Below, piece after piece: positions 1,039-25,026 of a stretch of DNA of 64,000 nucleotides. Within the stretch, counting starts at the first letter, position 1; each line of letters starts with the position of its first letter. The notes under the pieces are model-generated. The model saw only the letters and a program-made list of their open reading frames with translations, was not told the origin of the DNA and ran no database searches. The DNA lies in contig JBJEME010000055.1 in assembly GCA_051879515.1 (NCBI GenBank), forward strand, positions 1,961-65,960, read 5' to 3'. The translations under genes were made by a program, and so were the position numbers. This DNA comes from Lachnospira sp. (GTDB taxonomy: Bacteria; Bacillota; Clostridia; Lachnospirales; Lachnospiraceae).

Positions 1039-1078
1039 ATATAGGTATTAGACATAAAGAAAAATGTAATGGTATATT
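1022..1078 (+). promoter_or_regulatory. LysR-type box 1 overlapping a SigA promoter
   Basis: ATAGGTATTAGACAT at 1041-1055 (T-N11-A). It contains -35 TAGACA (1049-1054); -10 TATATT is at 1073-1078. GCATTTCTGA lies 19 bp upstream. Confidence 0.7.
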
Positions 1079-4201: not shown

Positions 4202-5335
<1,134 letters not shown>

Positions 5336-5407: not shown

Positions 5408-5463
5408 GCATGTTTGAAAATAGTATATAGGTATTAGACATTTCTATATGCCAGCGATACAAT
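5408..5463 (+). promoter_or_regulatory. LysR-type box 3 overlapping a SigA promoter of the redox operon
   Basis: ATAGGTATTAGACAT at 5427-5441; TAGACA (5435-5440), 17 bp, TACAAT (5458-5463). GCATGTTTGA lies 19 bp upstream. Confidence 0.7.
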
Positions 5464-5495
5464 AAAGGTGTTCCAAAGGAACACCTTTATTTTTT
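5461..5495 (+). terminator. Perfect 14-bp inverted repeat with T-tail (terminator or operator)
   Basis: AATAAAGGTGTTCC-AAA-GGAACACCTTTATT-TTTT. Confidence 0.65.
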
Positions 5496-5527
5496 GTACA
5501 TAAATGGAAGGAGGCTTCAAAATAGAC

Positions 5528-6373
5528 ATGATTGAACTAAATAATGGAATAAAAATGCCGTTGCTTGGTTTCGGTGTTTTCCAGATAACAGATGAAATAG
5601 CGTGTGAAGAAAGCGTTTTATGTGCATTAAAGACCGGTTATCGAATGATTGATACAGCTGCCTGTTATGGAAATGAAAAAGCAGTAGGAGCAGCGATTAA
5701 AAGAAGCGGTATTCCCAGAGAGGAAATCTTTATCAGCTCGAAAGTCTGGATTCAAGATGCAGGCTATCTGGCAACAAAGCGTTCTTTTGAAAAGACGTTG
5801 CAAAATTTGCAGACAGATTATCTTGACTTGTACTTAATCCATATGCCTTATGGAGATTATCACGGCAGTTGGGAGGCAATGGAAGAACTATACCGGGAAG
5901 GCAAAATAAGAGCAATCGGTGTTTGCAATTTTCTACCGGATCGATTGGTAGATTTGATTTTAAGTCATCGGATTGTGCCTGCTATCAATCAAATTGAATT
6001 GCATCCATTTTGCCAGCAGACAGAATTGCGTTGCTTGATGGAGCAATATCGTATTCAAACAATGGCATGGGCACCTTTTGCGGAAGGTCGGGATGGGATT
6101 TTTGAAAACGAAATACTGAATGCAATTGGCAGAAAATATGGAAAAACACCTGCACAAGTCACTTTACGTTGGCTTCGACAGGAAAGAATCATTGCAATTC
6201 CAAAATCAGTTCATGCTGAACGCATAAAGCAGAACTTCGCAATAGATGATTTCTCTCTTACTGATTCAGATATAAGAGAGATTGAGAAAATGGATTGCCA
6301 TAAAAGCTTGATTCTGGAAATTCAGAGTTTAGATGAGGTACATAGGCTTCATGGTATTCATTTTGAACAATAG
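5528..6373 (+). CDS. Aldo/keto reductase (2,5-diketo-D-gluconate reductase-like)
   Basis: LNNGIKMPLLGFG, IDTAACY, FISSK, DLYLIHMP, IAIPKS. Likely start is ATG 5528 after GGAGG. Confidence 0.95.
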   Translation: MIELNNGIKMPLLGFGVFQITDEIACEESVLCALKTGYRMIDTAACYGNEKAVGAAIKRSGIPREEIFISSKVWIQDAGYLATKRSFEKTLQNLQTDYLDLYLIHMPYGDYHGSWEAMEELYREGKIRAIGVCNFLPDRLVDLILSHRIVPAINQIELHPFCQQTELRCLMEQYRIQTMAWAPFAEGRDGIFENEILNAIGRKYGKTPAQVTLRWLRQERIIAIPKSVHAERIKQNFAIDDFSLTDSDIREIEKMDCHKSLILEIQSLDEVHRLHGIHFEQ

Positions 6374-6396
6374 GTAGTCGGAAAGGAGAAATTACA

Positions 6397-6606
6397 ATGC
6401 CTCATATAGCAATTACCATGATTCCCGGACGGGATGAGGATGCCAAGCGAAGGCTGGCAAAAAAAGCACAGGAACTTCTAATCAAAGAACTGGGCGTTGA
6501 TTCCAAGTACGTGTCTGTATCTATTCAGGATATTCCCATGGAGAACTGGAAGAAATCTATGGAACAATATTCAGATGAAGTTCTGTATATTAAGCCGGGC
6601 ATATAA
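6397..6606 (+). CDS. 4-oxalocrotonate tautomerase family protein
   Basis: 69 aa, catalytic Pro-1 start (MPHI), AAGGAG RBS. Confidence 0.85.
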   Translation: MPHIAITMIPGRDEDAKRRLAKKAQELLIKELGVDSKYVSVSIQDIPMENWKKSMEQYSDEVLYIKPGI

Positions 6607-6639
6607 ACCAAATTTATGTGGAATTGGAGGATTAAAGAA

Positions 6640-7110
6640 ATGAGTAAGAAACTGGTAGCATATTTTTCAGCAAGCGGTAGAACAAAGAAAGCCGCTGAGC
6701 ATCTGGCTAAGGTAGCGGGGGCAGATCTGTTTGAAATCAAACCCGTTGTTCCTTATACCCGCGAGGATTTGAACTGGATGGACAAAAAGAGCCGTAGCAG
6801 CGTGGAGATGAATAATTCGTCTTCCCGCCCAGAGATTGCTGAGAAATTGGCAAATATGGCAGACTACGATACGGTGTTCGTTGGTTTTCCAATCTGGTGG
6901 TATGTTGCACCGCATATTATAAACACCTTTGTAGAAAGCTACGATTTTACAGGAAAAACGATGGTGCCTTTTGCTACCTCCGGTGGTAGTGGTATGGGCA
7001 ATACTGTTGATGATTTGAAGGAACTCTGCCCGAATGCCAATTGGAAAGTTGGGAAGGTGGTAAATGGCATGTCCGACAAAGAACTGTCTGAATGGGTAAA
7101 TATGTTTTGA
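6640..7110 (+). CDS. Cytoplasmic flavodoxin (Flavodoxin_4 type)
   Basis: [29 protein letters not shown]. No signal peptide. Start at ATG 6640 after GGAGG. Confidence 0.92.
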
Positions 7111-7125
7111 TGTAGGAGGATAACT

Positions 7126-7812
7126 ATGGAAATGAAAAGGACTGACCCCGAATTTTTTGAACGATTTCATTATTTTGCCTTTGATGAGGTTGTTAATGAA
7201 GAAAATCAGCAGCTTGATGCACCTACACGATATTTGGCAATTATAGCTGCTTTGATTGGCTGCGGTGGACTGGATGCGTACCGGGAAATGCTGCCTATTG
7301 CATTGGAAAATGGTGTTACTCCGATCATGCTCAAGGAAACTGTTTATCAGGCAACGGATTATCTCGGGTATGGACGGATACTTCCTTTTTTGGATGCAGC
7401 CAATGATATTTTTGAGCAGAACGGAATTGAGCTGCCTCTGCCCGGGCAAGCCACCACAACGCTTAATGACAGGTTGGAAAAAGGTGCTGATGCACAGGCT
7501 GCTATTTTTGGTGAACAGATGAAAGAGGCATGGAAGAATGGGCATATCAACCGCTGGTTGGCTGCAAATTGTTTTGGAGACTTTTACACGCGCACCGGGC
7601 TTGATTTGAAACAGCGTGAGATGATTACCTTTTGCTTCCTTATGGCACAGGGTGGTTGTGAACCACAGCTTATCGCACATGCAAAGGGAAATATGAACCT
7701 GGGCAATGATAAAGAGTTTCTTGTTCGGGTGGTGTCCCAATGCCTGCCTTATATTGGTTATCCACGCAGTCTCAATGCGGTTAGCTGTATTCAAAAAGCT
7801 GCAGAGAATTAA
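7126..7812 (+). CDS. Carboxymuconolactone decarboxylase (CMD/AhpD-like) family protein, two repeats
   Basis: DFYTRTGLDLKQREMIT, LIAHAKG, PYIGYPRSLNA. Confidence 0.88.
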   Translation: MEMKRTDPEFFERFHYFAFDEVVNEENQQLDAPTRYLAIIAALIGCGGLDAYREMLPIALENGVTPIMLKETVYQATDYLGYGRILPFLDAANDIFEQNGIELPLPGQATTTLNDRLEKGADAQAAIFGEQMKEAWKNGHINRWLAANCFGDFYTRTGLDLKQREMITFCFLMAQGGCEPQLIAHAKGNMNLGNDKEFLVRVVSQCLPYIGYPRSLNAVSCIQKAAEN

Positions 7813-7845
7813 AAAGTTTTATGTGATTTGGAAAGGAATGATAGG

Positions 7846-8850
7846 ATGGAATATACAACTTTAGGAAATACAGACATTCAAATCTCAAAAATATGTGTAG
7901 GCTGCATGAGTTTTGGCAAGGCAGGTACGATGCACGATTGGACACTGGACGAAGAGGAAACAGAGAAGGTGGTCAGACATGCTCTTTCTCTCGGTATCAA
8001 CTTTTTTGATACTGCCAATGGCTATTCTGCCGGGACAAGTGAAGAATATCTGGGTCGTGCATTAAAAAAAAGCATTGCACGTGACAAGGTAGTGATAGCC
8101 TCAAAGGTTTATTTTAACCCCGGAAGACTGTCCGCTGCGGCAATTCACAGAGAAATAGATGGTACGCTCAAGCGTTTGGGAACAGATTACCTTGACCTGT
8201 ATATTATCCATCGCTTTGATTATGACACACCAATTGAAGAAACTATGGAAGCCCTGAATGATTTGGTCAAAGCCGGAAAGGTACGGGCACTGGGTGCTTC
8301 TGCTATGTATGGATATCAGTTCTATAATATGCAGCTTGCTGCACGTGATCATGGATGGGCACAGTTTCAGGCTATGGAAAATCATTATAATCTGCTTTAC
8401 CGAGAGGACGAGCGGGAATTGATTCCAATCTGCAGGCAGATGGGCGTATCTCTAATGCCGTACAGTCCGTTGGCAGCGGGTCATCTTACCCGCCCACAGT
8501 GGAATACGGATACTCTTCGTAGCACAACCGATAGGGTAGCGATGGGAAAATACGACCGTACCGAGGAGCAGGATATGCAGATTGTTTTGCGTGTGCATGA
8601 ACTGGCAGAGCGATACGGCGTGAAGATGCAGCAGATTGCACTTGCGTGGCACTGGGCAAAGGGTGTCGCATCTCCTATCATCGGAGCTACGAAAGCATCC
8701 CATTTTGAAGATGCAGCCGCTGCACTTGCAGTGAAGCTGACAGAGGAGGATATAGCATATCTTGAGGAACCATATCTTCCGCACCGTATTGTGGGAGCCA
8801 TTGATCATAACCCCGCAGATGGGGTAATGCTGTTAGATGAAAAGAAATAG
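7846..8850 (+). CDS. Aldo/keto reductase (YajO-like subfamily)
   Basis: YTTLGNT, GINFFDTANGYS, IASKV, DLYIIHRFD, PYSPLAAG. Confidence 0.94.
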   Translation: MEYTTLGNTDIQISKICVGCMSFGKAGTMHDWTLDEEETEKVVRHALSLGINFFDTANGYSAGTSEEYLGRALKKSIARDKVVIASKVYFNPGRLSAAAIHREIDGTLKRLGTDYLDLYIIHRFDYDTPIEETMEALNDLVKAGKVRALGASAMYGYQFYNMQLAARDHGWAQFQAMENHYNLLYREDERELIPICRQMGVSLMPYSPLAAGHLTRPQWNTDTLRSTTDRVAMGKYDRTEEQDMQIVLRVHELAERYGVKMQQIALAWHWAKGVASPIIGATKASHFEDAAAALAVKLTEEDIAYLEEPYLPHRIVGAIDHNPADGVMLLDEKK

Positions 8851-8871
8851 CAAGTAAAGAGGTGATAAGAA

Positions 8872-10059
8872 TTGAAAAAATTTATTTTATGGATTCTTTC
8901 TATATGTCTGATATTCTGTTTTACAGCATGTGGCAGACAAGAAGACTCTGTTGATGAATTGGCACTATCTCAGCCTGATTTAGAAGAAAGTACACAACCG
9001 GAAAGCACAAGTGAAGAAGAGGCTCAGGGTGTTCCAGGGAATCAAAGTGTTTCAGAGGAAGGTCAGGAACATATATTGATTGCTTATTTTACATGGGCAG
9101 ATAATACAGTGGTAGAGGACGAGGATGCAGCGATTCAATCTGCGCTTGCCCACTATGAGTCTGTTGGTGACACATCAGATTATAGCGGAACGGATGCGAT
9201 TTCTTCCGCCAGTGTTGTGGCACCGGGAAATACAGCAAAAATGGCAGAGTGGATTCAGCAATATGTGGGAGGTGATTTGTTCCCGATTATTGTAACAGAA
9301 CCATATCCAAGTAATTATGATGATTGTCTTGACCGAGCCGCAGATGAAAAGGCTGAAAATGCCAGACCGGAACTTGCAAATCACATAGATAACATGGATG
9401 ACTATGATGTAGTTTTCCTTGGTTTTCCTAACTGGTGGTATACGGCACCAATGGCGGTTTTTTCTTTTATAGAGGAGTATGACCTTTCGGATAAAACAGT
9501 TGTTCCTTTTTGTGCGCATGGAACAGGAGGAATTGCAAGCAGTGTAAAGGACATTACAGCCGCATTGCCGGATTCGGCAGAAGTATTGGAGCCTATTGGA
9601 GTTTACAGGGCAGACATAAATAAAGCACAACCGGCTATCAATGAGTGGCTGGATAGACTTGGATTTCAGGAGAAAGAGGATGTAGCAAAGATGGATAACA
9701 ATGAGAGAAAGCTGAAAATGACAATTGATGGGCATGAACTCGCTATCACTCTTTATGACACGCCTGCAGCAAATGCGCTATATGATATGCTTCCAATGGA
9801 ATTGAACTTTGAAGATTTTAATGGTGTAGAAAAGATCAGCTATCTCTCACAAGAATTACCTACAGAAGGAGAACCGGATGGTTGTGATCCAGATGTTGGG
9901 GATCTATGCCTTTATGCCCCATGGGGAAATCTTTCTGTATTTTATCAGGATTTTCGGTATTCAGACAGCTTAATTTTGCTTGGTCATATTGATTCTGGGA
10001 TGGATATAATTTCCGGTATGAACGAGGATTTCACAGCAACACTCGAAGCCGTTGATTAA
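8872..10059 (+). CDS. Lipoprotein: flavodoxin domain plus C-terminal cyclophilin-like domain
   Basis: Lipobox FTAC, acidic linker, ILIAYFT...GNT...FLGFPNWW...PFCAHGTGG, then TLYDTPAANAL...GDLCLYAPWGNLSVFY. Confidence 0.85.
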   Translation: MKKFILWILSICLIFCFTACGRQEDSVDELALSQPDLEESTQPESTSEEEAQGVPGNQSVSEEGQEHILIAYFTWADNTVVEDEDAAIQSALAHYESVGDTSDYSGTDAISSASVVAPGNTAKMAEWIQQYVGGDLFPIIVTEPYPSNYDDCLDRAADEKAENARPELANHIDNMDDYDVVFLGFPNWWYTAPMAVFSFIEEYDLSDKTVVPFCAHGTGGIASSVKDITAALPDSAEVLEPIGVYRADINKAQPAINEWLDRLGFQEKEDVAKMDNNERKLKMTIDGHELAITLYDTPAANALYDMLPMELNFEDFNGVEKISYLSQELPTEGEPDGCDPDVGDLCLYAPWGNLSVFYQDFRYSDSLILLGHIDSGMDIISGMNEDFTATLEAVD

Positions 10060-10129
10060 ATTTTTTTTATGAAGAAGAGGCATCTAGCTGAAAGGGTATT
10101 TGCTGAAAAATACTTACAGGAGGATTGAG

Positions 10130-11134
10130 ATGAAAAAGTTGCTTATGGAAGCATTGGTTCTTAGCCTTGTCTTATCAATGACTGCCTGCAGAAAAATAGA
10201 TACAACATCAATATCGGATGAAATGACATCGCAAGAGTCAGTAGAAAATATAGAATCTCCTGTTATGGAGGAAAAGGATGAAGCAATGTTGGAGACCAAT
10301 GAAAATATAGAGAGCGCTATTCCCTTTAACTTTGAATCAAAAACTGTTCTTTTAAATAGTGGTTATGAAATGCCGATTTATGGAATTGGTACATACAGTC
10401 TATTAGGTGATGAATGTGTTGACTCTGTATCGGCGGCATTGAACAGCGGAGTTCGGTTAATTGATACAGCTTATATGTATCATAACGAGGAGAGTGTTGG
10501 AGAGGCGGTCAATAATTCGGGTATACCGCGAGAAGAAATATTTATCATCACGAAATTATATCCGGATCAGTATGAAGATGCTGAAGCTGCTATTGATGAA
10601 GCAATTGAAAAGTTGGATGTTGAGTATATTGACATGATGCTTCTTCATCATCCGGGAGAGGGTGATGTGAAAGCGTATCTCGCTATGGAAAAGGCAGTGG
10701 CAGAAGGAAAAATTCATTCGATTGGCCTGTCTAACTGGTACATTGAAGAATTGGAAAGTTTTCTGCCCCAGATAAATATTACGCCTGCACTTGTTCAGAA
10801 TGAGATTCATCCATATTATCAGGAGAATGATGTAATTCCATATATACAAAGTCTCGGTATTGTAGTACAGGGATGGTATCCTCTTGGCGGAAGGGGGCAT
10901 ACGGCAGAACTCCTCGGAGATGAAGTGATTTCTGAGATAGCGGATGCACATGGAAAATCATCAGCACAAGTAATCCTTAGATGGAATCTACAGAAAGGTG
11001 TAGTGGTAATTCCGGGTTCAAGCAATCCTGAACACATTCAGGAAAATACGGAACTATTTGACTTTGAACTGACTGAGGATGAAATGGAACGAATCAACGC
11101 ATTAGATAGAGGAGAAAAACACGACTGGTATTAG
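10130..11134 (+). CDS. Lipoprotein-anchored aldo/keto reductase
   Basis: MKKLL...VLSMTAC lipobox, acidic linker, AKR catalytic residues present (IDTA, MYHN, ITKL, LLHHP). Confidence 0.85.
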   Translation: MKKLLMEALVLSLVLSMTACRKIDTTSISDEMTSQESVENIESPVMEEKDEAMLETNENIESAIPFNFESKTVLLNSGYEMPIYGIGTYSLLGDECVDSVSAALNSGVRLIDTAYMYHNEESVGEAVNNSGIPREEIFIITKLYPDQYEDAEAAIDEAIEKLDVEYIDMMLLHHPGEGDVKAYLAMEKAVAEGKIHSIGLSNWYIEELESFLPQINITPALVQNEIHPYYQENDVIPYIQSLGIVVQGWYPLGGRGHTAELLGDEVISEIADAHGKSSAQVILRWNLQKGVVVIPGSSNPEHIQENTELFDFELTEDEMERINALDRGEKHDWY

Positions 11135-11269
11135 AACAATGGAAGTGTTGATACAAATGAGTGTCCTTTCAGATTTGTCATAAGAGTATTTTCCTATATT
11201 GGAGAATACATGTACAGCAATTTCTGAATAAGCTGGAATGTGATTGAAAAACTCAGAAAGGAGTAGATT

Positions 11270-12001
11270 ATGGAAAGACCTTATATTACCTGTCATATGA
11301 TGGTGTCATTGGATGGAAAAATTATCGGAGATTATATGGTTACGGAGGTTGCAGAAAAAATTAATTCAGAGTATGAACGGATACATGATGAATTTCAGGC
11401 TGATGCGTGGATGTGTGGTAGAGTGACAATGGATGATAACTTTACTTTTTATGAAGAGCCTGAACTGCCACATATTACGGAAAGGATACCTCATACAGAT
11501 TATATTGCGCAAAAGGATGCAGGCAGTTATGTGATAGCGGTTGACCCGTCCGGCAGGCTTGGATGGAAGGAGGACAATATTCACGGATATGCCAAAAGAC
11601 CGCCGGCACATATTGTTGAAGTCCTAACAGAACGGGCATCAGATGGATACCTTGCTTATCTGCAAGAATTAGGAATCTCATACATTTTTGCAGGTAAGGA
11701 GCATGTTGATTGTGAACTTCTTGTATATAAACTCAAAGAATTATTTGAAATCAAACGGCTACTGTTGGAAGGCGGAGGTTTCTTAAACGGTTCGTTTATG
11801 GTTGCAGGATTGATTGATGAGCTTAGTCTTGTGGTTGTACCCATAGCAGACGGGGATTCAGATACAGTAACGCTCTTTGAGAAGGCTGATTACATAGAAA
11901 AAGGTATTCCAATGGAGTTTCAGTTGGAAAATGTGAATCGTTTGGGCGAGAGCGGTCTCTGGCTTCAATATAAAACAAAGAAAAACCAATTAGGAGGTTA
12001 A
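11270..12001 (+). CDS. RibD C-terminal / dihydrofolate reductase-like oxidoreductase
   Basis: HMMVSLDGKI, LLEGGGFLNGSFM, GLIDELSLVVVP. Confidence 0.85.
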   Translation: MERPYITCHMMVSLDGKIIGDYMVTEVAEKINSEYERIHDEFQADAWMCGRVTMDDNFTFYEEPELPHITERIPHTDYIAQKDAGSYVIAVDPSGRLGWKEDNIHGYAKRPPAHIVEVLTERASDGYLAYLQELGISYIFAGKEHVDCELLVYKLKELFEIKRLLLEGGGFLNGSFMVAGLIDELSLVVVPIADGDSDTVTLFEKADYIEKGIPMEFQLENVNRLGESGLWLQYKTKKNQLGG

Positions 12002-12005
12002 GAAA

Positions 12006-12779
12006 ATGAAGAGGATAGCAGCTCTTATGATGTCACTTCTACTGATGTGCACTCTGGCTGCTTGCAGTAGTCGAGGGAAGCAATCGGAAAGCAGTGTACC
12101 TATATCTGATACAGAAATACCTACTTCAACGGAAAAAACAGAACCTTCCGACAAAGAAAGTACAGAGCCATATGAAACAGAAAGCTCTCAAGAAAATTTG
12201 GAAACTGCGACAAACAGCAATATTCTGATCGTTTATTTTTCCCGCTATGGTAATACGGATTATCCCGATGATGTGGATGCCACTACTTCTGCCAGCATTG
12301 TGGCAGAAGGAAATGAGCGATATGGGACAACAGAATATGTCGCATATCTAATTCAGCAGACAGTAGGAGGTGATGTTCATAGGATTGAAACTGTTACTCA
12401 CTATACGGCAGATTTCGATGAACTGCGGGATGTGAATCACGAGGAAATGCAGCAGGGATTCTTGCCGGAATTGAAAGAAAGCAATCTGGATATTTCAACT
12501 TATGATACGGTGTTTATCGGATATCCGGTATGGGCGACCAGCGTACCGCAGGCGGTTCTGTCTTTTTTGGAGCAGTATGACCTGTCCGGGAAAACAGTTA
12601 TTCCGTTTTGCACTCATGATGGTTATGGTGCAGGAAGTAGTTTTAAGGTGATTGCTGATGCCAGTCATGCAACAGTGTCACCGGAAGGTATTGCAATAGA
12701 AGCAAAAGATGTACCTACAGCACAAAATACTGTAGCTGATTGGCTTACAGATATTGGTATTTCCAGTACTCAGGATTAA
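12006..12779 (+). CDS. Lipoprotein flavodoxin (C-terminal domain probably lost)
   Basis: Lipobox LAAC, ILIVYFSR, VFIGYPVW, PFCTHDGYG. Confidence 0.87.
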   Translation: MKRIAALMMSLLLMCTLAACSSRGKQSESSVPISDTEIPTSTEKTEPSDKESTEPYETESSQENLETATNSNILIVYFSRYGNTDYPDDVDATTSASIVAEGNERYGTTEYVAYLIQQTVGGDVHRIETVTHYTADFDELRDVNHEEMQQGFLPELKESNLDISTYDTVFIGYPVWATSVPQAVLSFLEQYDLSGKTVIPFCTHDGYGAGSSFKVIADASHATVSPEGIAIEAKDVPTAQNTVADWLTDIGISSTQD

Positions 12780-12883
12780 ACCGTTGGAAGAGTCACTCCC
12801 AATCTTTCTGTGATTAATGATCTTGATAGCACGGAAGATATTACATTTTCATTAGTACAATAATAAATTTGGAGGAAATTATT

Positions 12884-13618
12884 ATGAAAAAAACAATCGC
12901 TATTTTACTTTCTTTATTCATGATTTTGTGCCTTGCGGCTTGCGGCAATTCTGCAAGTAGTACGGATCAGTCTTCAGTGGAAGATGATGGTGTAGAAAAC
13001 AATATAAGTAATGGTGTATCGACAGATAATGATGATACATTAACAGAAAGTAGCAATTCGGACAATATGGAAAGCGAGGCAGTGTCCGAATCACAGGTGG
13101 AGGAAACAGAAACTCCAAATGTGCAGGAAACCAAAGTTTTAGTGGCTTATTTTTCTGCTACCAACACAACGGAAGGTGTAGCAGAACATATTGCAAATGG
13201 TCTGGATGCTGATCTTTACGAGATTATTCCTGAAGATCCCTACACAGATGCTGATCTTAATTACAATGATAACAACAGCCGAACTACGATTGAAATGAAT
13301 GATCCCAATGCCCGTCCGGCAATCTCAGGTTCCGTAGAGAACATGGAACAGTATGATATTGTGTTTATTGGTTATCCAATCTGGTGGGGAGAAGCACCAA
13401 GAATTGTCAGCACTTTTATGGAAAGCTACGATTTTTCCGGTAAGACAATAGTTCCGTTCTGCACCTCCGCCAGTAGTGGCATAGGTTCTAGCGCAACAAA
13501 TCTGGAACGGCTTACGAGCGGTGCTACATGGCTTTCCGGTCAGCGTTTGAACGGAAGCGATTCTCAGGATACAGTTATGGAATGGGTAAACAGCCTTGGT
13601 TTGGACTTTGGAGAATAG
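12884..13618 (+). CDS. Lipoprotein flavodoxin
   Basis: Lipobox LAAC, S/D/E/N-rich linker, VLVAYFSATNTT, FIGYPIWW, PFCTSASSG. Start at ATG 12884. Confidence 0.88.
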   Translation: MKKTIAILLSLFMILCLAACGNSASSTDQSSVEDDGVENNISNGVSTDNDDTLTESSNSDNMESEAVSESQVEETETPNVQETKVLVAYFSATNTTEGVAEHIANGLDADLYEIIPEDPYTDADLNYNDNNSRTTIEMNDPNARPAISGSVENMEQYDIVFIGYPIWWGEAPRIVSTFMESYDFSGKTIVPFCTSASSGIGSSATNLERLTSGATWLSGQRLNGSDSQDTVMEWVNSLGLDFGE

Positions 13619-13649
13619 TTAGGTAAAACAGATCCAAGGAGATGATTAT

Positions 13650-14435
13650 ATGAAAAAATTACTTGTATTTATGATTTCTCTCATGCTGGTAGTTTCTCTG
13701 GCTGCTTGTTCTAATATGCAGCAGGACACAAATTCCGAAAATGCATCGAGCGAAGAAACTGAACAGGCAACAGAATCCGTCCCCATAGAAACCACGGAAT
13801 CGGATATTTCGCAGGGAGAGGATAATGTGGATTTTTCCAATACTGATACCACTCCTTCAGAGGCGGAAGAAGGGGAGGGCAGCAATATCCTGATTGCTTA
13901 TTTTACCTACGGTGAAAATGCGGAGCTTCCGGATGATGTGGATGCTTCCTCAACCGCCAGTATCCAGATATTAAACGGTAAAGTTACAGGAAATACCGGT
14001 GTAATGGCACACATGATTGCGGAGGCTTCCGGCGGAGAACTGTTCTCCATTCGGACAGTTGAGCCTTATCCTGATAATTATAATGATACCGTTGATGCCG
14101 GGGAAGCTGAAAAGAATAATAATATCCGTCCAGAAATAGCTACGCATATCGAGAATCTGGAACAATACGAAACGGTTTTTGTTGGATTTCCTAATTGGTG
14201 GTATGGCATGCCTATGGTAATGTACAGTTTCTTTGATGAGTACGATTTTAGCGGGAAAAATATTATTCCTTTTTGTACTTCCGGTGGCAGTGCATTTTCA
14301 GATGCAATTGATGAAATAAAGGAAATGGAGCCAGATGCAACAGTTCTAAATGGACTTCATATCGGTGGTTCCAGTGTATCCGATGCGAAAAGCAGAGTGA
14401 ATGAGTGGGTGGAGGAACTCGGCTTATCAAAATAA
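13650..14435 (+). CDS. Lipoprotein flavodoxin
   Basis: Lipobox LAAC, ILIAYFTY...GNT, FVGFPNWW, PFCTSGGS. Confidence 0.88.
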   Translation: MKKLLVFMISLMLVVSLAACSNMQQDTNSENASSEETEQATESVPIETTESDISQGEDNVDFSNTDTTPSEAEEGEGSNILIAYFTYGENAELPDDVDASSTASIQILNGKVTGNTGVMAHMIAEASGGELFSIRTVEPYPDNYNDTVDAGEAEKNNNIRPEIATHIENLEQYETVFVGFPNWWYGMPMVMYSFFDEYDFSGKNIIPFCTSGGSAFSDAIDEIKEMEPDATVLNGLHIGGSSVSDAKSRVNEWVEELGLSK

Positions 14436-14455
14436 TGCGAAAGGACAAATAACTC

Positions 14456-15169
14456 ATGAAACTTAAAATGAAAATAAAAATAGGAATTGATTTTCTGATG
14501 ACAGTGTTGTTGCTTTGTCTGATGGCGTATCAAATCACTGGGCAGGAGTTACATGAGTGGTTTGGTACCGGGATGCTTGTACTGTTCATCGCACACAACG
14601 TTCTAAATATCAGGTGGTACAGTAGCTTATTAAAAGGAAAATATATGCCGTTTCGTATCGTGCAGACAATTGTCAATTTTGGTGTCCTAATTTCCATCCT
14701 TTGTCTTGGATACAGCGGAATTGTTATGTCACGTCATGTATTTTCTGCACTGCCCTTTAGAGGACCGATGGCAACAGCGAGAAGTATGCACATGTCAGTC
14801 TCTTATTGGGGGTTTGTATTAATGAGCATTCATTTGGGCATGCACTGGGGACAGATTATGGGAGTGTTTCGAAGAATATTCGCAGGTAAGAAGATGCATG
14901 GAATATTTGCATGGGGATTACGGCTGGTGGCGATGGCAATAGCAGGATATGGATTAGTTTGCTTCACCCGGAAGGATATTGTTTCGTATATGTTCCTCAA
15001 AAAACAATTTGTATTTTTCGATTTTGAACAAAATGCCTTGTCCGTATTCTGTGAGTATATAGTCATGATGGTTTTTTGGGCATTTGTCAGCTATTACATC
15101 ACTAGAGGAATCGGAAAGATTTTCACTTTGAAATACAAAAGGAAGGAGACAAATCATGAAGAAATTTAG
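14456..15169 (+). CDS. DUF4405-like membrane protein (putative diheme cytochrome b)
   Basis: Several TM helices, LHEWFG motif, His33/His47 and His112/His126 each spaced by 14, plus His130. Confidence 0.75.
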   Translation: MKLKMKIKIGIDFLMTVLLLCLMAYQITGQELHEWFGTGMLVLFIAHNVLNIRWYSSLLKGKYMPFRIVQTIVNFGVLISILCLGYSGIVMSRHVFSALPFRGPMATARSMHMSVSYWGFVLMSIHLGMHWGQIMGVFRRIFAGKKMHGIFAWGLRLVAMAIAGYGLVCFTRKDIVSYMFLKKQFVFFDFEQNALSVFCEYIVMMVFWAFVSYYITRGIGKIFTLKYKRKETNHEEI

Positions 15170-16640
15170 TGCTCTTTTAATAGCAGCAGCAATGCTTATT
15201 ACATTGTGTTCCTGCGGCAACAATGCTACTGAACCGCAAAATGTTTTTTCAACCGAAAGTTTAACCGAAAGCAACTCGGAACAGACAGATACTGCAAGTG
15301 AACCGGAAATAAATCAGACTGTAAGCAATATACCCGAGGATTTTGTTCTGATTTCGGGAGGAACTTTCCAAATGGGCAGCCCGGAGGAAGAAGCATGGCG
15401 CTCAGAGGATGAAACCCAGCATACTGTAACAGTCAGTGATTTCTATATGAGTATTTATGAGCTTACCCAGGCAGAATATCAAGAAGTTATGGGGGAGAAT
15501 CCGTCCAGTTTTTCCGGGGGTGATTTGCCCGTGGAAAATATTTCCTGGCTGGATGCCATACGCTATTGCAATGCCAGAAGTGAACAGGAAGGCTTAACAC
15601 CGGCTTATAAGATAGATGAACAAAATGTAACATGGGATCGCAGTGCAGATGGTTATCGGCTTCCTACCGAAGCGGAATGGGAATATGCCTGCCGTGCAGG
15701 AACTACGACACCATTCAATACAGAAACCTCCATCAGTGCTGAAGAATGTAATTATTTTGGACATTACCCTTATGAAATTGAGGACAATTATTTTTCTCAG
15801 GGGAATCTGGAGACTAAGCCCGGGGAGTATCGCCAAACCACTGTTGCAGTCGATAGTTTTTCTCCAAATAAGTGGGGAATTTACAATATGCACGGCAATG
15901 TCGGTGAATGGGTCTGGGATTATTATGGAGCCTATGGCACAGAAGAACAAACCAATCCAACCGGTGCTGAAACGGGAACGCTGCGAGTATATCGTGGTGG
16001 CGGTTGGAACGATTTTGCAAAAAATATGCGTAGTGCTTATCGCGCAACACTGGCAGAAAATAAAGGCAGTTTCAATATAGGAATTCGATTAGTGCGAAAC
16101 GCTGTAAGTGGTAGCGGAAGTGTTGTCAGTGCGGATATGCAAAACAAAGCAAATACTGATGGAAAGGTCTTAATTGCTTTCTTCTCATGGGGTGGAAACA
16201 CCAAAGGAATTGCAGAGGAAATACAATCACAGACTGGTGCGGATTTATTTGAAATCGAACTGGTGCATCCTTATTCGACAGATTATAACACAGTATTGGA
16301 TGAAGCACAGCGGGATCAGAATGAGCAGGCGCGTCCTGAACTTGCCACTCATGTAGAGAATATGGATGAGTATGAAATAATTCTTCTGGGATATCCAAAC
16401 TGGTGGGCATCTATCCCAATGCCGATTGCGTCATTCTTGGAAGAATATGATTTTTCCGGAAAGACAATTATTCCATTCTGTTCTCATGGAGGAGGCAGAT
16501 TCGGGCAGAGTCTGACAGCGATTACGAAGTTGGCACCTGATTCCATCATGGGAGAAGCACTTGCTGTTAGTTACTCTGGTGGCAGTACTCTGCCTGATGA
16601 CATAACAGAATGGTTGAAAACAAACGGAATAATTGAATAA
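15156..16640 (+). CDS. Lipoprotein: FGE-sulfatase (SUMF1-like) domain fused to flavodoxin
   Basis: Lipobox LCSC; GGTFQMGS, PVENISW, YRLPTEAEWEYACR, MHGNVGEW, RGGGW, GIRL; then VLIAFFSWGGNT...GYPNWW...PFCSHGGG. Confidence 0.88.
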   Translation: MKKFSALLIAAAMLITLCSCGNNATEPQNVFSTESLTESNSEQTDTASEPEINQTVSNIPEDFVLISGGTFQMGSPEEEAWRSEDETQHTVTVSDFYMSIYELTQAEYQEVMGENPSSFSGGDLPVENISWLDAIRYCNARSEQEGLTPAYKIDEQNVTWDRSADGYRLPTEAEWEYACRAGTTTPFNTETSISAEECNYFGHYPYEIEDNYFSQGNLETKPGEYRQTTVAVDSFSPNKWGIYNMHGNVGEWVWDYYGAYGTEEQTNPTGAETGTLRVYRGGGWNDFAKNMRSAYRATLAENKGSFNIGIRLVRNAVSGSGSVVSADMQNKANTDGKVLIAFFSWGGNTKGIAEEIQSQTGADLFEIELVHPYSTDYNTVLDEAQRDQNEQARPELATHVENMDEYEIILLGYPNWWASIPMPIASFLEEYDFSGKTIIPFCSHGGGRFGQSLTAITKLAPDSIMGEALAVSYSGGSTLPDDITEWLKTNGIIE

Positions 16641-16668
16641 ATAGATAAATGTCAAGGGAGGAAAAGGC

Positions 16669-18012
16669 ATGGATCAGCAAACAGCTCTGTTTTCAAATAA
16701 GAGCTTGAGGGCAATGATTATTCCCCTGTTTTTAGAACAGTTGTTGGTGATGCTTGTGGGACTGGCAGATACACTTATTGTAAGCTACGCCGGAGAAGCA
16801 GCAGTATCCGGGGTTTCACTGGTGAACCAGTTTAATACTATTTTCATTTATCTGTTTACAGCTTTGGCTTCCGGCGGAGCCGTTGTAATTAGTCAGTATA
16901 TCGGAAAGAAGGCAAATGAAGATGCCGGGGAGTCTGCAAGTCAGCTATTGTCCTTTTCTACAGTGTTTTCTTTGTTGGTAGCAGTACTGGTACTGATAGG
17001 AAATGAAACAATGCTTCGTTTGCTGTTTGGGAAAGTAGAGAAAGATGTCATGCAGGCTTGCATTACATACTTGAGAATTTCTGCTTACTCCTATCCGGCA
17101 CTTGCAATTTATAATTCCGGTGCAGCATTGTTCCGGAGTATTGGCAAGACCAGTATAACGATGTATTTGTCCCTAGCATCCAATATTATCAATATTATCG
17201 GAAATGTAATTGGTGTATTTGTTTTAAAGGCAGGTGTGGCTGGTGTAGCATATCCTTCTCTAATTGCCCGAATCTTTTCGGCAGTTGTGATTACGTTGCT
17301 TTGCTTTCATAAGAAGTATCAAGTCGTGTATAGAAGCAAATGGATTTTTCGGTGGAATGGAAGTCTTATGAAACACATACTGAACATCGCCATTCTGAAT
17401 GGATTGGAGAACGGTGTTTTTCAGTTGGTAAAGGTAGCTTTGAGCAGTATTGTAGCACTTTTTGGTACTTATCAGATTGCGGCAAACGGTGTGGCGCAAA
17501 GCATCTGGTCACTGGCGGCTTTGGCTGGTGTTTCCATGGGACCGGTATTTATCACGGTAATTGGGCAGTGCATGGGAAATGGGGATGCCAGGGCGGCAGA
17601 TGATTATTTTAAGAAATTGACAAGGATAACCCTTCTGATTTCATCCGCATGGAATCTGCTGGTATTTTTGTTGACCCCGACTTTTCTTAAATTTTATGCC
17701 TTGGAACCAGAAACAAAACAGCTAGTTATATGGCTAGTGCTGATTCATAATGTGTTTAACGCTGTTGCATTTCCATTTTCCGGTGCTCTCAGCAATGGGC
17801 TTCGGGCGGCAGGAGATGTGAAGTTTACCATGTATGTATCTGTCATATCCACCATTGCAGTGCGCTTAATTCTATCTTATCTTTTAGGAATTACGCTGCA
17901 AATGGGGGTCATTGGCATTGCGATTGCTATGGTTTGTGACTGGCTGATTCGGGCTGTGATTTTCTTCTGGAGACAGAAATCAGGGAAGTGGAAAAAATTC
18001 CAGGTAATCTAG
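16669..18012 (+). CDS. MATE family efflux transporter
   Basis: About 12 TM segments, GLADTLIVSYAGEAAVSGVSL, RAAGD. Confidence 0.93.
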   Translation: MDQQTALFSNKSLRAMIIPLFLEQLLVMLVGLADTLIVSYAGEAAVSGVSLVNQFNTIFIYLFTALASGGAVVISQYIGKKANEDAGESASQLLSFSTVFSLLVAVLVLIGNETMLRLLFGKVEKDVMQACITYLRISAYSYPALAIYNSGAALFRSIGKTSITMYLSLASNIINIIGNVIGVFVLKAGVAGVAYPSLIARIFSAVVITLLCFHKKYQVVYRSKWIFRWNGSLMKHILNIAILNGLENGVFQLVKVALSSIVALFGTYQIAANGVAQSIWSLAALAGVSMGPVFITVIGQCMGNGDARAADDYFKKLTRITLLISSAWNLLVFLLTPTFLKFYALEPETKQLVIWLVLIHNVFNAVAFPFSGALSNGLRAAGDVKFTMYVSVISTIAVRLILSYLLGITLQMGVIGIAIAMVCDWLIRAVIFFWRQKSGKWKKFQVI

Positions 18013-18039
18013 GCAGATAAATTGAAAAGGAGATGTTTA

Positions 18040-18444
18040 ATGAAAACACATGCATTTCAACAAATTTTCCCATTAGGGGAGAAAAATGATGCGTATGCCC
18101 AATTCTTTGTTGGGCAAAGCTATTTGAAGATGTTGACGACGGAGCGTGTCAGCATTGCAAACGTAACTTTTGAGCCAGGTTGCCGCAACAACTGGCATAT
18201 TCACCATAAAGGCGGACAGATTTTACTCTGCACCGCCGGACGTGGATATTATCAGGAATGGGGCAAGCCTGCACAGGAATTGAAACCGGGAGATGTGGTG
18301 AATATTCCACCGGAGGTGAAGCATTGGCATGGGGCAGCTCCAGACAGTTGGTTTTCCCATCTGGCAATTGAGGTTCCTGTAGTAGATGCATCAAATGAAT
18401 GGCTGGAAGAAGTCGATGCACAGGAATATGAAAAGTTAAAATAG
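18040..18444 (+). CDS. Cupin domain protein
   Basis: FEPGCRNNWHIHH...GQIL, PGDVVNIPPEVKHWHGA. Start at ATG 18040. Confidence 0.92.
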   Translation: MKTHAFQQIFPLGEKNDAYAQFFVGQSYLKMLTTERVSIANVTFEPGCRNNWHIHHKGGQILLCTAGRGYYQEWGKPAQELKPGDVVNIPPEVKHWHGAAPDSWFSHLAIEVPVVDASNEWLEEVDAQEYEKLK

Positions 18445-18456
18445 GAGGATTCAAAT

Positions 18457-19629
18457 ATGAGTTTCACAATTTTTATGCCAACAAAATGGATTTTTGGTGC
18501 GGGAGTATTGAGCGAACTGAGTAAACAGCCTCTTCCGGGGAAGAAGGCAATGCTTGTCACATCGAATGGAAAATCGACAAAAGAAACCGGTTCACTTTAT
18601 CGGGTCATCGAGCAACTCGCAAAATGTGGGGTCGAAAGTTTGATTTTTGATAAAATCGAAGCAAACCCTTTGAAAAAAACGGTTATGGATGGTGCGGCTT
18701 TCGCAAAATCAAGCGGTTGTGACTTTATTGTGGCACTGGGTGGTGGAAGTGTTATGGATGCGTCAAAAGCAATTGCAGCTATGGCTACGAATAGCGGAGA
18801 TTTATGGGACTATATTTGCGGTGGTACAGGAAAGGGACATCCGCTGACTGAACAGCCTTTGCCGGTTGTCGCGATTACAACTACAGCAGGAACCGGAAGT
18901 GAGGTTGATCAATGGGGTGTCGTCTCCAATGATGAAACCAATGAGAAGATTGGTTTTGGCGGCTATGACTCTCTGTTTCCTGTACTGTCCATTGTTGATC
19001 CGGAACTGATGGCTACCGTACCGCCGATGTTTACAGCTTTTCAGGGCTTTGATGCACTGTTTCACAGTACAGAAGTGTACATATCCAAATTTGCTAATCC
19101 ATTCTCTGACATGGTGGCATTGACAGCTATTGAGTACATTGCAAAAAATCTTGCTAATGCTGTGAACGATGGAGCAGATATGACGGCTCGTGAAAAAGTA
19201 GCCTTTGGTAATACGCTTTCCGGTTATTCCATGGTAACAGGAGCTTGTACCAGCGAGCATGCGATGGAACATGCCATGAGTGCATATCATCACGATTTGC
19301 CCCACGGTGCCGGATTGATTATGATTTCTAAAGCCTACTATCAGCATTTTGTGGATCTGCATGTCTGTGACGACCGTTTTATCAAGATGGCACAGGTGAT
19401 GGGGATGCCGGAAGCTTCTAAAGCACAAGATTTCATTACAATGCTGGATAAGTTACAAAAAGATTGCGGTGTGGATAATCTGAAAATGTCGGATTATCAG
19501 TTTGAGCAAGATGAATTTAGGACTCTTGCGCAGAATGCAAGAGCGACAATGGGCGGTTTGTTTGCCTCTGATCCGGTGGAACTGTCTGACGATGACTGTG
19601 TAAAAATATTTGAGAGATCCTATCGGTAG
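18457..19629 (+). CDS. Iron-containing alcohol dehydrogenase
   Basis: ALGGGSVMDASK, TTAGTGSE, DALFH, EHAMEH, PHGAG. Confidence 0.94.
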   Translation: MSFTIFMPTKWIFGAGVLSELSKQPLPGKKAMLVTSNGKSTKETGSLYRVIEQLAKCGVESLIFDKIEANPLKKTVMDGAAFAKSSGCDFIVALGGGSVMDASKAIAAMATNSGDLWDYICGGTGKGHPLTEQPLPVVAITTTAGTGSEVDQWGVVSNDETNEKIGFGGYDSLFPVLSIVDPELMATVPPMFTAFQGFDALFHSTEVYISKFANPFSDMVALTAIEYIAKNLANAVNDGADMTAREKVAFGNTLSGYSMVTGACTSEHAMEHAMSAYHHDLPHGAGLIMISKAYYQHFVDLHVCDDRFIKMAQVMGMPEASKAQDFITMLDKLQKDCGVDNLKMSDYQFEQDEFRTLAQNARATMGGLFASDPVELSDDDCVKIFERSYR

Positions 19630-19641
19630 AGGTTGGCGTAT

Positions 19642-22989: not shown

Positions 22990-23035
22990 TAAGATATAAT
23001 TTTGCATAAAAATTGCAGAATGGAGGATTTTGAGA

Positions 23036-24370: not shown

Positions 24371-25026
24371 TTAAGAGAAAATCCACCAAAAAGTATTACT
24401 TTACAGTTGAGGGTGAAACAGAAAAATGGTATCTGGAATGGTTAAGAGATAGAATCAATGAATGTGAAAAAGCTAACTTTAAGGTATCGTTTGATATTCA
24501 GATTCAGAAAAATCCTTTAAAGAGAGCGAAGTCTCTAATAGCAACGAGCAAGACTGAAATCTGGCATCTGTCTGATTATGAAAGCGATGATCCTATTCAT
24601 GTAAAACAGTTTACTGAGACGATGGATAATATGAAAGCTGCAACCAATCTTGGTAAACAGATTTCATATAAGTTTGGATATACAAATCTGACTTTTGATT
24701 TATGGATCATCTTACATAAAGCTGCTTGTAATGGTTCCAAGGCTCATAGAAAAAATTATATCAATCCATTGAATCAGGCATATGGCGAAAAATTTGAAAA
24801 TATGGATGAATACAAGCATGAAGATAATTTTAAAAGATGCTTGGCACAACTATCTTTAGATAATGTCCAGTGTGCCATAGAAAGAGCTAACAACATAATG
24901 AAAAAAAACAGAGAGAATGGTTATTGCCTTTATGAGTACAAGGGATATAAGTATTATAAAGAAAATCCATCTTTAGCAATCAATGAGATTATTGAAAAAA
25001 TTTTTAAGGACTGTAAATTAATATAG
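24367..25026 (+). CDS. RloB domain protein (AbiLii-like)
   Basis: FTVEGETEKWYL TOPRIM-like start, TNLTFDLWIILH, ENPS. Overlaps the ATPase stop. Confidence 0.82.
   Translation: MIKRKSTKKYYFTVEGETEKWYLEWLRDRINECEKANFKVSFDIQIQKNPLKRAKSLIATSKTEIWHLSDYESDDPIHVKQFTETMDNMKAATNLGKQISYKFGYTNLTFDLWIILHKAACNGSKAHRKNYINPLNQAYGEKFENMDEYKHEDNFKRCLAQLSLDNVQCAIERANNIMKKNRENGYCLYEYKGYKYYKENPSLAINEIIEKIFKDCKLI

What the first reader, a model, noticed from the sequence alone, without database searches (positions are those of the whole stretch)
9193..13961. ApbE-like flavinylation motif inserted in the phosphate-binding loop of three lipoprotein flavodoxins
Seen: 8872 (DAISSAS, 9193-9213), 12006 (DATTSAS, 12276-12296) and 13650 (DASSTAS, 13941-13961) each carry an insertion between the xAYF[ST] strand and the G[NT]T helix start. 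The cytoplasmic flavodoxin 6640 and lipoproteins 12884 and 15156 lack it. Established: the canonical ApbE target is D-x-x-[ST]-G-A-[ST]. Inference: this is a G-to-S/T variant that tethers FMN covalently (Ser114, Ser97, Ser104) next to the flavodoxin pocket so it is not lost outside the cell. The literature on non-canonical flavinylated flavodoxins should be checked for prior reports.
Basis: partly seen in the sequence, partly recalled or inferred. Interest (0 to 1): 0.75.

Follow-up and report, generated by a model that had tools for sequence, protein, structure and literature searches.

The report
Covalently flavinylated surface flavodoxins, already described
Three membrane-tethered flavodoxins of a gut Clostridia bacterium carry a loop that very probably lets the neighbouring enzyme ApbE bond their flavin to a serine, but this protein class was published and confirmed experimentally in 2024, so these are further ordinary members.

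Summary
ORFs 8872, 12006 and 13650 are lipoprotein Flavodoxin_4 (PF12682) proteins. Each has a 27-44 residue insertion between strand beta1 and the G-[NT]-T start of helix alpha1, containing DAISSAS, DATTSAS or DASSTAS. The paralogs 6616, 12869 and 15156 lack the insertion.

Huang, Meheust, Barquera and Light (mSystems 2024, PMC11334425) described Flavodoxin_4 proteins with this beta1/alpha1 insertion. They showed ApbE-dependent, Ser-dependent covalent flavin in two of them. They also reported apbE + DUF4405 + flavinylated Flavodoxin_4 gene clusters. This window has all three parts: DUF4405 at 14456 and ApbE at 19633.

The "G-to-S/T variant" is the commonest state in this family, not an oddity. 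Across 88 motif-bearing domains from 80 genomes the consensus is D-A-x-[AST]-[SG]-A-S. Position 5 is S in 49 and G in 35. The acceptor is Ser in 88 of 88.

An AlphaFold2 model (pLDDT 90.7) matches the FMN-bound Flavodoxin_4 crystal structures. The sequences of the two validated proteins could not be retrieved.

Verdict: new members of a known kind, low interest.

The parts
8872..10059 (+). Lipoprotein with a Flavodoxin_4 domain carrying a 44-residue beta1/alpha1 insertion (residues 75-118), fused to a C-terminal Cyclophil_like2 domain
   Evidence: Pfam PF12682 E=3e-26 and PF18050 E=2e-35. Insertion seen. Lipobox FTAC with Cys20.
9193..9213 (+). Motif DAISSAS. Ser114 is the predicted FMN acceptor, only 4 residues before G119-N-T.
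   Evidence: The same heptamer occurs in relatives in L036 and L063.
12006..12779 (+). Lipoprotein Flavodoxin_4 with a 27-residue insertion (residues 80-106). It lacks the cyclophilin-like C-terminal domain that most of its orthologs have.
   Evidence: Pfam. Homologs of about 375 aa carry PF04126/PF18050.
12276..12296 (+). Motif DATTSAS. Ser97 is the predicted FMN acceptor.
   Evidence: 108 of 120 homologs have the identical heptamer and 119 of 120 keep D-A-x-x-S-A-S.
13650..14435 (+). Lipoprotein Flavodoxin_4 with a 27-residue insertion (residues 87-113)
   Evidence: Pfam. AlphaFold2 model of residues 75-261 has pLDDT 90.7. Foldseek top hits are 4ICI, 4J8P and 3KLB.
13941..13961 (+). Motif DASSTAS. 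Ser104 is the predicted FMN acceptor. It lies just before a beta-hairpin (106-108 / 111-113) that leads into G114-N-T.
14456..15169 (+). DUF4405 membrane protein, the presumed di-haem b cytochrome that carries electrons across the membrane
   Evidence: PF14358 E=2e-11. His33, His47, His112 and His126 are conserved in 38-40 of 41 homologs. Haem b binding was shown for a homolog in PMC11334425.
19633..20829 (+). ApbE flavin transferase with an N-terminal membrane anchor
   Evidence: PF02424 E=4e-88, profile positions 1-265 of 266. It is one of two ApbE genes in the genome.
12869..13618 (+). Lipoprotein Flavodoxin_4 without the insertion (likely start at 12884). Predicted to bind FMN non-covalently outside the cell.
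   Evidence: PF12682 E=1e-60. No insertion.
15156..16640 (+). Lipoprotein with an FGE-sulfatase-fold domain fused to a Flavodoxin_4 domain without the insertion
   Evidence: PF03781 E=1e-46 and PF12682 E=2e-28
6616..7110 (+). Cytoplasmic Flavodoxin_4 with no signal peptide and no insertion. A candidate cytoplasmic electron donor.
   Evidence: PF12682 E=3e-75
10100..11134 (+). Aldo/keto reductase with a lipoprotein signal. A possible extracytoplasmic partner.
   Evidence: PF00248 E=1e-49. Lipobox MTAC.
16669..18012 (+). MATE-family transporter inside the cluster. Its role is unknown. FAD export is only a guess.
   Evidence: PF01554 E=2e-46. A homolog is present in 10 of 80 related loci.

Best explanation
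The three proteins are exported, lipid-anchored Flavodoxin_4 proteins. Their FMN is attached covalently by the cluster-encoded, membrane-anchored ApbE. ApbE takes FAD and transfers its FMN moiety as a phosphoester to the last Ser of D-A-x-x-[ST]-A-S (Ser114, Ser97, Ser104). That Ser lies in a loop inserted into the phosphate-binding turn between beta1 and alpha1. The flavin ring can therefore still occupy the normal flavodoxin pocket, but it cannot diffuse away from the cell surface. The DUF4405 di-haem cytochrome b encoded next to them most likely passes electrons from the cytoplasm to these flavodoxins. Possible donors are the cytoplasmic flavodoxin 6616 or the reductases of the cluster. The flavodoxins would hand the electrons on to exported partners whose substrates are unknown: the fused cyclophilin-like domain, the motif-less flavodoxins 12869 and 15156, and the AKR lipoprotein 10100. 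Shown here: the domain family, the insertion, motif conservation, the gene neighbourhood and the fold. Shown by others on homologs: ApbE- and Ser-dependent covalent flavin, and haem b in DUF4405. Inferred: covalent flavin in these three proteins, the direction and partners of electron flow, and the route of FAD export.
For: All three proteins are PF12682, and apbE and DUF4405 lie in the same same-strand gene array. The insertion splits the phosphate loop: YFT|insertion|TGNT aligns with YFS-CSGVT of FMN-bound 3KLB. Motif positions D1, A2, A6 and S7 are nearly invariant across 88 domains from 80 genomes, while positions 3-5 vary. This singles out S7 as the functional residue. The orthologous groups of 13650 and 12006 keep the motif down to about 55-60% identity, and the nearest relatives of 8872 in the tree also carry it. 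One genome (L001) has all three orthologs at 83-86% identity. The AlphaFold2 model has pLDDT 90.7 and a flavodoxin core matching 4ICI, 4J8P and 3KLB (TM 0.80-0.84). In the model Ser104 sits at the foot of a hairpin that ends at the G-N-T helix start. All 6 related loci with apbE within 10 kb carry a motif-bearing Flavodoxin_4, and 5 of those 6 have at least one non-G motif. The published experiments on this class are in PMC11334425. A Gly-to-Ala change in the canonical motif only halves flavinylation (review PMC12052999).
Against: No experiment exists on these proteins, or on any protein shown here to have S/T at position 5. The sequences of the two validated proteins could not be retrieved, so I do not know whether they are G-type or S-type. 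The Ser-to-FMN distance was not measured because no model coordinates were available. Enrichment of apbE near motif-bearing genes is not significant (6 of 58 against 0 of 22, Fisher p=0.18). Presence of apbE anywhere in the genome does not discriminate (54 of 58 against 18 of 22). pLDDT is lowest across the motif itself (76). An insertion of the same length exists in relatives without the A-S motif, so the loop alone does not prove flavinylation.
Confidence: 0.85

Rival explanations
1. The insertion is a lid or extended phosphate-binding loop that holds FMN non-covalently. In this reading the conserved Ser hydrogen-bonds the phosphate, as the first Ser/Thr of a normal flavodoxin P-loop does, and no ApbE reaction takes place.
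For: An insertion of the same length with a Ser at the aligned position but N-S instead of A-S (MPETT..EE[DA]NSTVVIDGEVL-GNT) exists in 13 related loci, none of them with apbE nearby. Many exported Flavodoxin_4 domains have no site at all. apbE adjacency is rare overall (6 of 80 loci).
Against: Two proteins of this class were shown to carry covalent flavin dependent on ApbE and on the Ser (PMC11334425). The D-A....A-S signature matches the ApbE motif at four of its five fixed positions. apbE is in this cluster.
Confidence: 0.08
2. The proteins are flavinylated, but at another Ser/Thr of the S/T-rich stretch (for example Ser100, Ser101 or Thr102 of 13650) rather than at the last Ser.
For: The motifs contain three to four hydroxyl residues in a row.
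Against: Position 4 is Ala in 41 of 88 relatives and position 5 is Gly in 35 of 88. Position 7 is Ser in 88 of 88. ApbE modifies the last residue of its motif (PMC12052999).
Confidence: 0.04
3. The loop is a docking or structural element, for DUF4405 or for a partner enzyme, and has nothing to do with the flavin. Its resemblance to the ApbE motif would be coincidental.
For: None specific. The pLDDT of the motif is only moderate.
Against: The background frequency of the pattern is about 1e-5 per residue. The loop sits exactly in the FMN phosphate-binding turn. There is published experimental precedent.
Confidence: 0.03

Closest known systems
ApbE-flavinylated Flavodoxin_4 proteins of Anaerocolumna xylanovorans (SHO45324.1) and Desulfosporosinus lacus (WP_073032509.1), from Huang, Meheust, Barquera and Light, mSystems 2024 (PMC11334425)
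   Same: PF12682 domain. An insertion between beta1 and alpha1 carrying a flavinylation-like motif that ends in Ser. Firmicutes origin. Co-location with apbE. Extracytosolic location.
   Different: Three such paralogs sit in one cluster here, and one of them is fused to a cyclophilin-like domain. Direct sequence comparison was not possible because the two sequences could not be retrieved. It is therefore unknown whether the validated proteins have G or S/T at motif position 5.
apbE / DUF4405 / flavinylated Flavodoxin_4 gene clusters (Oscillospiraceae example, Fig. 6C of PMC11334425)
   Same: The apbE, DUF4405 cytochrome and flavinylated Flavodoxin_4 genes lie together on one strand. DUF4405 has four conserved His.
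   Different: No ECF-type flavin transporter was found in the cluster, but a MATE transporter is present. The cluster also holds two motif-less exported flavodoxins, three aldo/keto reductases (one of them exported), and Fe-ADH, cupin, CMD and RibD_C genes.
Non-covalent Flavodoxin_4 structures 3KLB, 4ICI and 4J8P (Bacteroides)
   Same: The same fold (TM 0.80-0.84) and the same G-x-T helix start and FMN pocket residues.
   Different: They lack the insertion and the acceptor Ser. They are cytoplasmic and bind FMN non-covalently.
Canonical ApbE substrates: FMN_bind domains of NqrC, RnfG, PplA and the fumarate/urocanate reductases, with motif D-x-x-[S/T]-G-A-[S/T]
   Same: Asp at position 1, Ala at position 6 and a hydroxyl acceptor at position 7. 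Extracytosolic location.
   Different: A different fold. Position 5 is S/T instead of G. The acceptor in this family is always Ser, whereas Thr is the residue ApbE prefers in studied systems.
Engineered 'flavin-fixing' (Tong et al., JACS 2023, PMC10722498)
   Same: The same principle: an ApbE motif placed so that the acceptor sits next to the phosphate of an FMN that was previously bound non-covalently.
   Different: That system is man-made. This one is the natural counterpart.

Membership tests
ApbE-flavinylated Flavodoxin_4 (PMC11334425) | Flavodoxin_4 (PF12682) domain | tested here: met
   E=3e-26, 1e-17 and 5e-30 for ORFs 8872, 12006 and 13650, all above the gathering score
ApbE-flavinylated Flavodoxin_4 (PMC11334425) | Insertion between strand beta1 and helix alpha1 that is absent from 3KLB-type proteins | tested here: met
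   44, 27 and 27 extra residues between YF[ST] and G[NT]T
ApbE-flavinylated Flavodoxin_4 (PMC11334425) | Flavinylation-like motif ending in Ser/Thr inside the insertion, conserved among relatives | tested here: met
   consensus D-A-x-[AST]-[SG]-A-S, final Ser in 88 of 88
ApbE-flavinylated Flavodoxin_4 (PMC11334425) | apbE in the same gene cluster | tested here: met
   ApbE at 19633-20829, same strand, 5.2-9.6 kb downstream of the three genes
ApbE-flavinylated Flavodoxin_4 (PMC11334425) | Extracytosolic location | tested here: met
   each protein has a lipoprotein signal with Cys20. This is by inspection only; no predictor was run.
ApbE-flavinylated Flavodoxin_4 (PMC11334425) | Acceptor Ser positioned at the FMN phosphate in the 3D model | tested here: inconclusive
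   the fold matches FMN-bound 3KLB, and the hairpin register puts Ser104 opposite G114/N115. No coordinates were returned, so no distance was measured.
ApbE-flavinylated Flavodoxin_4 (PMC11334425) | Covalent FMN that depends on ApbE and on the Ser | not testable with these tools
   Needs co-expression, UV SDS-PAGE and mass spectrometry
ApbE-flavinylated Flavodoxin_4 (PMC11334425) | Sequence similarity to the two validated proteins | not tested
   The sequences are not in the paper's supplement and neither organism was among the 80 named loci
Canonical ApbE motif D-x-x-[S/T]-G-A-[S/T] (PMC12052999) | Asp at position 1, Ala at position 6, Ser/Thr at positions 4 and 7 | tested here: met
Canonical ApbE motif D-x-x-[S/T]-G-A-[S/T] (PMC12052999) | Gly at position 5 | tested here: not met
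   S, S and T. Among relatives, S 49, G 35 and others 4. Gly-to-Ala lowers flavinylation to about 50% in a model substrate.
apbE/DUF4405/Flavodoxin_4 cluster (PMC11334425) | DUF4405 protein with four conserved haem-ligand His | tested here: met
   His33, His47, His112 and His126
apbE/DUF4405/Flavodoxin_4 cluster (PMC11334425) | ECF-type flavin transporter in the cluster (present often, not always) | tested here: not met
   no ECF component among the ORFs of 154-30111. A MATE transporter lies at 16669-18012.

The most novel reading that the evidence does not exclude
The cluster may be more than one further flavinylated flavodoxin. It could encode a multi-step surface redox relay. In it a DUF4405 cytochrome would feed three covalently flavinylated flavodoxins, and these would serve motif-less exported flavodoxins and exported enzyme-like domains: a cyclophilin-like domain, a Cys-less FGE fold and an aldo/keto reductase. 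This would be an extracytoplasmic reductive system for an unknown carbonyl, quinone or dietary substrate, under a LysR-type regulon. Separately, the family-specific motif D-A-x-[AST]-[SG]-A-S (Ser only, Gly dispensable, position 4 often Ala) would widen the accepted ApbE recognition rule, if S-type sites are shown to be modified.
Probability: 0.3. Interest if true: 0.5.

Novelty: new member of a known kind. Interest (0 to 1): 0.2.

Why it matters
Covalent attachment explains how a Gram-positive gut anaerobe keeps a soluble cofactor on proteins outside the membrane, and so how it moves electrons to the cell surface. That principle and this protein class were established in 2024. The window adds a well-preserved example with three flavinylated paralogs. 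This check also adds a family-wide description of the motif: S/T is more common than G at position 5, and the acceptor is always Ser. That could sharpen motif-based searches for ApbE substrates, which would miss more than half of this family if Gly is required. The physiological acceptor of the system remains the open question.

Tried and rejected
1. I tried to obtain the two experimentally validated sequences, SHO45324.1 and WP_073032509.1. The paper's Table S1 lists accessions only. Neither organism was among the 80 named genome loci or the named protein hits. No direct alignment was therefore possible.

2. I tested genome-level co-occurrence of the motif with apbE. ApbE is present in 54 of 58 motif genomes and 18 of 22 others. 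This is uninformative, because ApbE is nearly universal in these anaerobes.

3. I tested apbE adjacency: 6 of 58 motif loci against 0 of 22 others, Fisher p=0.18. The trend goes in the right direction but is not significant.

4. I tested whether non-G motifs go with a second, dedicated ApbE paralog. They do not (Fisher p=1.0), so that idea is rejected.

5. My first regex-based motif counts were out of register. I replaced them with profile-aligned or MAFFT-aligned columns.

6. I looked for model coordinates to measure the Ser-to-FMN distance. None are exposed.

7. I considered a second possible site, GSSAT, in 12869 (FCTSASSGIGSSAT). I rejected it because it lacks the Asp and the paralogs differ at that loop.
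Full report
**Observation**

The three coordinate ranges translate to DAISSAS, DATTSAS and DASSTAS. They lie in ORFs 8872-10059 (395 aa), 12006-12779 (257 aa) and 13650-14435 (261 aa). Each ORF starts with M-K-K/R, a hydrophobic stretch and a lipobox with Cys20, followed by a 50-70 residue acidic, Ser/Thr-rich linker.

Pfam places all three in Flavodoxin_4 (PF12682), and ORF 8872 also has a C-terminal Cyclophil_like2 domain. ORF 6616 has no signal peptide. ORF 12869 is a lipoprotein. ORF 15156 is a lipoprotein with an FGE-sulfatase-fold domain followed by Flavodoxin_4. All three are also PF12682.

In a MAFFT alignment and a profile alignment, the three motif-bearing proteins have 44, 27 and 27 extra residues between [AV]YF[ST] and G[NT]T. 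The other three have none.

The pattern D-x-x-[ST]-[ST]-A-[ST] occurs 20 times in 1.87 million residues of six-frame ORFs of this genome. Three of those are these homologous sites. Chance is excluded.

**Prior art**

A full-text search led to Huang, Meheust, Barquera and Light, mSystems 2024 (PMC11334425). That paper reports the following:

- In AlphaFold models the Ser is positioned for the covalent flavin to occupy the conserved pocket of 3KLB.
- The A. xylanovorans and D. lacus proteins, co-expressed with their cognate ApbE, give UV-fluorescent bands that are lost when the Ser is changed to Ala.
- A DUF4405 protein binds haem b.
- The authors conclude that flavinylation prevents loss of flavin outside the cytosol.

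**Context in the window**

Genes from 5504 to 20829 all lie on the + strand with short gaps. In order they are:

- AKR (5504)
- cytoplasmic Flavodoxin_4 (6616)
- CMD (7126)
- AKR (7828)
- flavodoxin with insertion plus cyclophilin-like domain (8872)
- AKR lipoprotein (10100)
- RibD_C (11270)
- flavodoxin with insertion (12006)
- flavodoxin without insertion (12869)
- flavodoxin with insertion (13650)
- DUF4405 (14456)
- FGE-fold plus flavodoxin (15156)
- MATE (16669)
- cupin (18022)
- Fe-ADH (18457)
- ApbE (19633)

DUF4405 keeps His33, His47, His112 and His126 in 38-40 of 41 homologs. The genome has two ApbE genes. The other one, on contig C88, is a lipoprotein next to a small membrane protein that I take to be of the Gx-transporter type; it was not scanned against any family library. 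All six complete Flavodoxin_4 genes of the genome lie in this cluster. A 15-bp box shared with two upstream promoters lies at 5427, just before the first gene.

**Conservation and the 'variant' question**

- Close and mid-distance homologs of 13650 (55-100% identity) all keep D-[AVT]-S-x-[ST]-A-S.
- 119 of 120 homologs of 12006 keep D-A-x-x-S-A-S.
- A search of 1.84 billion cluster representatives shows the insertion in many architectures, with both G-type motifs (DAVAGAS, DAVSGAS) and S-type motifs (DAVSSAS, DATTSAS, DASSSAS).

In 80 named genome loci, profile-registered columns give 88 motif-bearing domains:

| Motif position | Residue counts |
|---|---|
| 1 | D 86 |
| 2 | A 73 |
| 4 | A 41, S 32, T 15 |
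| 5 | S 49, G 35, others 4 |
| 7 | S 88, T 0 |

S/T at position 5 is therefore the commonest state. Only D1, A2, A6 and S7 are constrained, which identifies S7 as the acceptor.

A tree built without the insertion columns shows that each window paralog has its own orthologous group. An Oscillospiraceae MAG (L001) has all three orthologs at 83-86% identity. G and non-G states have interchanged several times.

According to the 2025 ApbE review, Gly-to-Ala in a model substrate still allows about 50% flavinylation.

**Structure**

An AlphaFold2 model of residues 75-261 of 13650 was built with 62 aligned sequences. It has mean pLDDT 90.7 and pTM 0.89. Its best PDB matches are the Flavodoxin_4 structures 4ICI, 4J8P and FMN-bound 3KLB (TM 0.80-0.84).

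The motif (model residues 24-30, pLDDT about 76) is followed by a beta-hairpin, residues 106-108 pairing with 111-113, which runs directly into G114-N-T at the start of alpha1. By hairpin register Ser104 lies opposite G114/N115, that is, at the phosphate-binding helix start.

The sequence alignment to 3KLB shows that the insertion splits the phosphate loop: YFS|CSGVT in 3KLB against YFT|insertion|TGNT here. In 8872 the Ser is only four residues before G-N-T.

- Every one of the six related loci with apbE within 10 kb has a motif-bearing Flavodoxin_4, and five of the six contain non-G motifs.
- The enrichment is not significant: 6 of 58 against 0 of 22, p=0.18.
- apbE presence anywhere in the genome does not discriminate: 54 of 58 against 18 of 22.
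- DUF4405 is the more frequent neighbour, in 39 of 80 loci. AKR (about 49), Fe-ADH (39) and LysR (37) are also frequent.

**Mechanism**

I put the odds at 0.85 that ApbE 19633 transfers FMN from FAD to Ser114, Ser97 and Ser104 on the outer face of the membrane. The remaining steps are inferred from the published model and the gene neighbourhood:

- DUF4405 supplies electrons from the cytoplasm.
- The tethered flavodoxins relay the electrons to exported partners.

The terminal acceptor is unknown.

The rivals each have low odds, because of the experimental precedent and the invariance of S7:

- a loop that binds FMN non-covalently
- a different acceptor residue
- a docking loop unrelated to the flavin

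**Verdict**

The feature is a new member of a known kind. Earlier notes from this scan on similar clusters in other genomes reached the same conclusion. I had already found the paper independently, and I treat those notes as agreement, not as evidence.

Noticed in passing
window 12869-13618 and 15156-16640; related loci L001-L080: Exported Flavodoxin_4 proteins without any flavinylation site are common. Two occur in this cluster. In related loci, 54 of 74 insertion-less domains have a lipobox or signal-like segment upstream, by a crude predictor. The rule 'outside the cell means flavinylated' is therefore not absolute. How these proteins keep their FMN is unexplained.
   Followed up: partly
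L038:10825-12030, L038:9980-10762, L026:9989-10747, L069:9878-10597 and others: A second class of beta1/alpha1 insertion has the same length and a conserved sequence, MPETTxPxNMTxEE[DA]NSTVVIDGEVL-GNT. A Ser aligns with the acceptor, but it is preceded by Asn instead of Ala and there is no Asp-Ala start. The class occurs in 13 of 80 loci, none with apbE nearby. It may be a non-covalent lid or an unrecognised modification site.
   Followed up: partly
88 motif-bearing domains in L001-L080 and the window: The acceptor is Ser in 88 of 88 domains and never Thr, although the ApbE review states that ApbE prefers Thr. Motif position 4, canonically S/T, is Ala in 41 of 88.
   Followed up: yes
window 12006-12779: Most homologs of this protein (about 370-400 aa) carry a C-terminal cyclophilin-like domain (PF04126/PF18050). 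This copy and a few others stop after the flavodoxin domain. The fusion of flavinylated flavodoxin with a cyclophilin-like domain is very widespread, and the role of that domain is unknown.
   Followed up: no
window 16669-18012: A MATE-family transporter sits between the flavodoxin genes and apbE. From my own knowledge, the FAD exporter Bfe of Shewanella is a MATE protein, so this gene could supply FAD to ApbE. A homolog occurs in only 10 of 80 related loci.
   Followed up: partly
window 10100-11134: This aldo/keto reductase has a lipoprotein signal. An enzyme that normally depends on NAD(P)H would be placed outside the cytoplasm. Homologs occur in 42 of 80 related loci.
   Followed up: no
window 1041-1055, 2213-2227, 5427-5441: An identical 15-bp box, ATAGGTATTAGACAT, occurs three times (0.22 matches expected by chance at up to 2 mismatches). 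Each copy overlaps a -35-like hexamer, and the third lies just upstream of the first gene of the flavodoxin cluster. This suggests one regulon with the LysR/MerR genes at 154-1508.
   Followed up: partly
window 5461-5491: A 14-bp perfect hairpin followed by a T-run lies between the promoter-like site at 5435-5463 and the AKR start at 5504. It could be the terminator of the upstream gene or a leader structure of the cluster.
   Followed up: no
window 4217-5335: One ORF joins the N-terminal half of a GH1 glycosidase (profile positions 4-211 of 453) to an FMN_red domain. It is probably a deletion fusion, a pseudogene or an assembly join.
   Followed up: no
window 23030-25026: An AAA_21 ATPase and an RloB-like protein form an overlapping gene pair. 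This is a candidate abortive-infection type defence pair.
   Followed up: no
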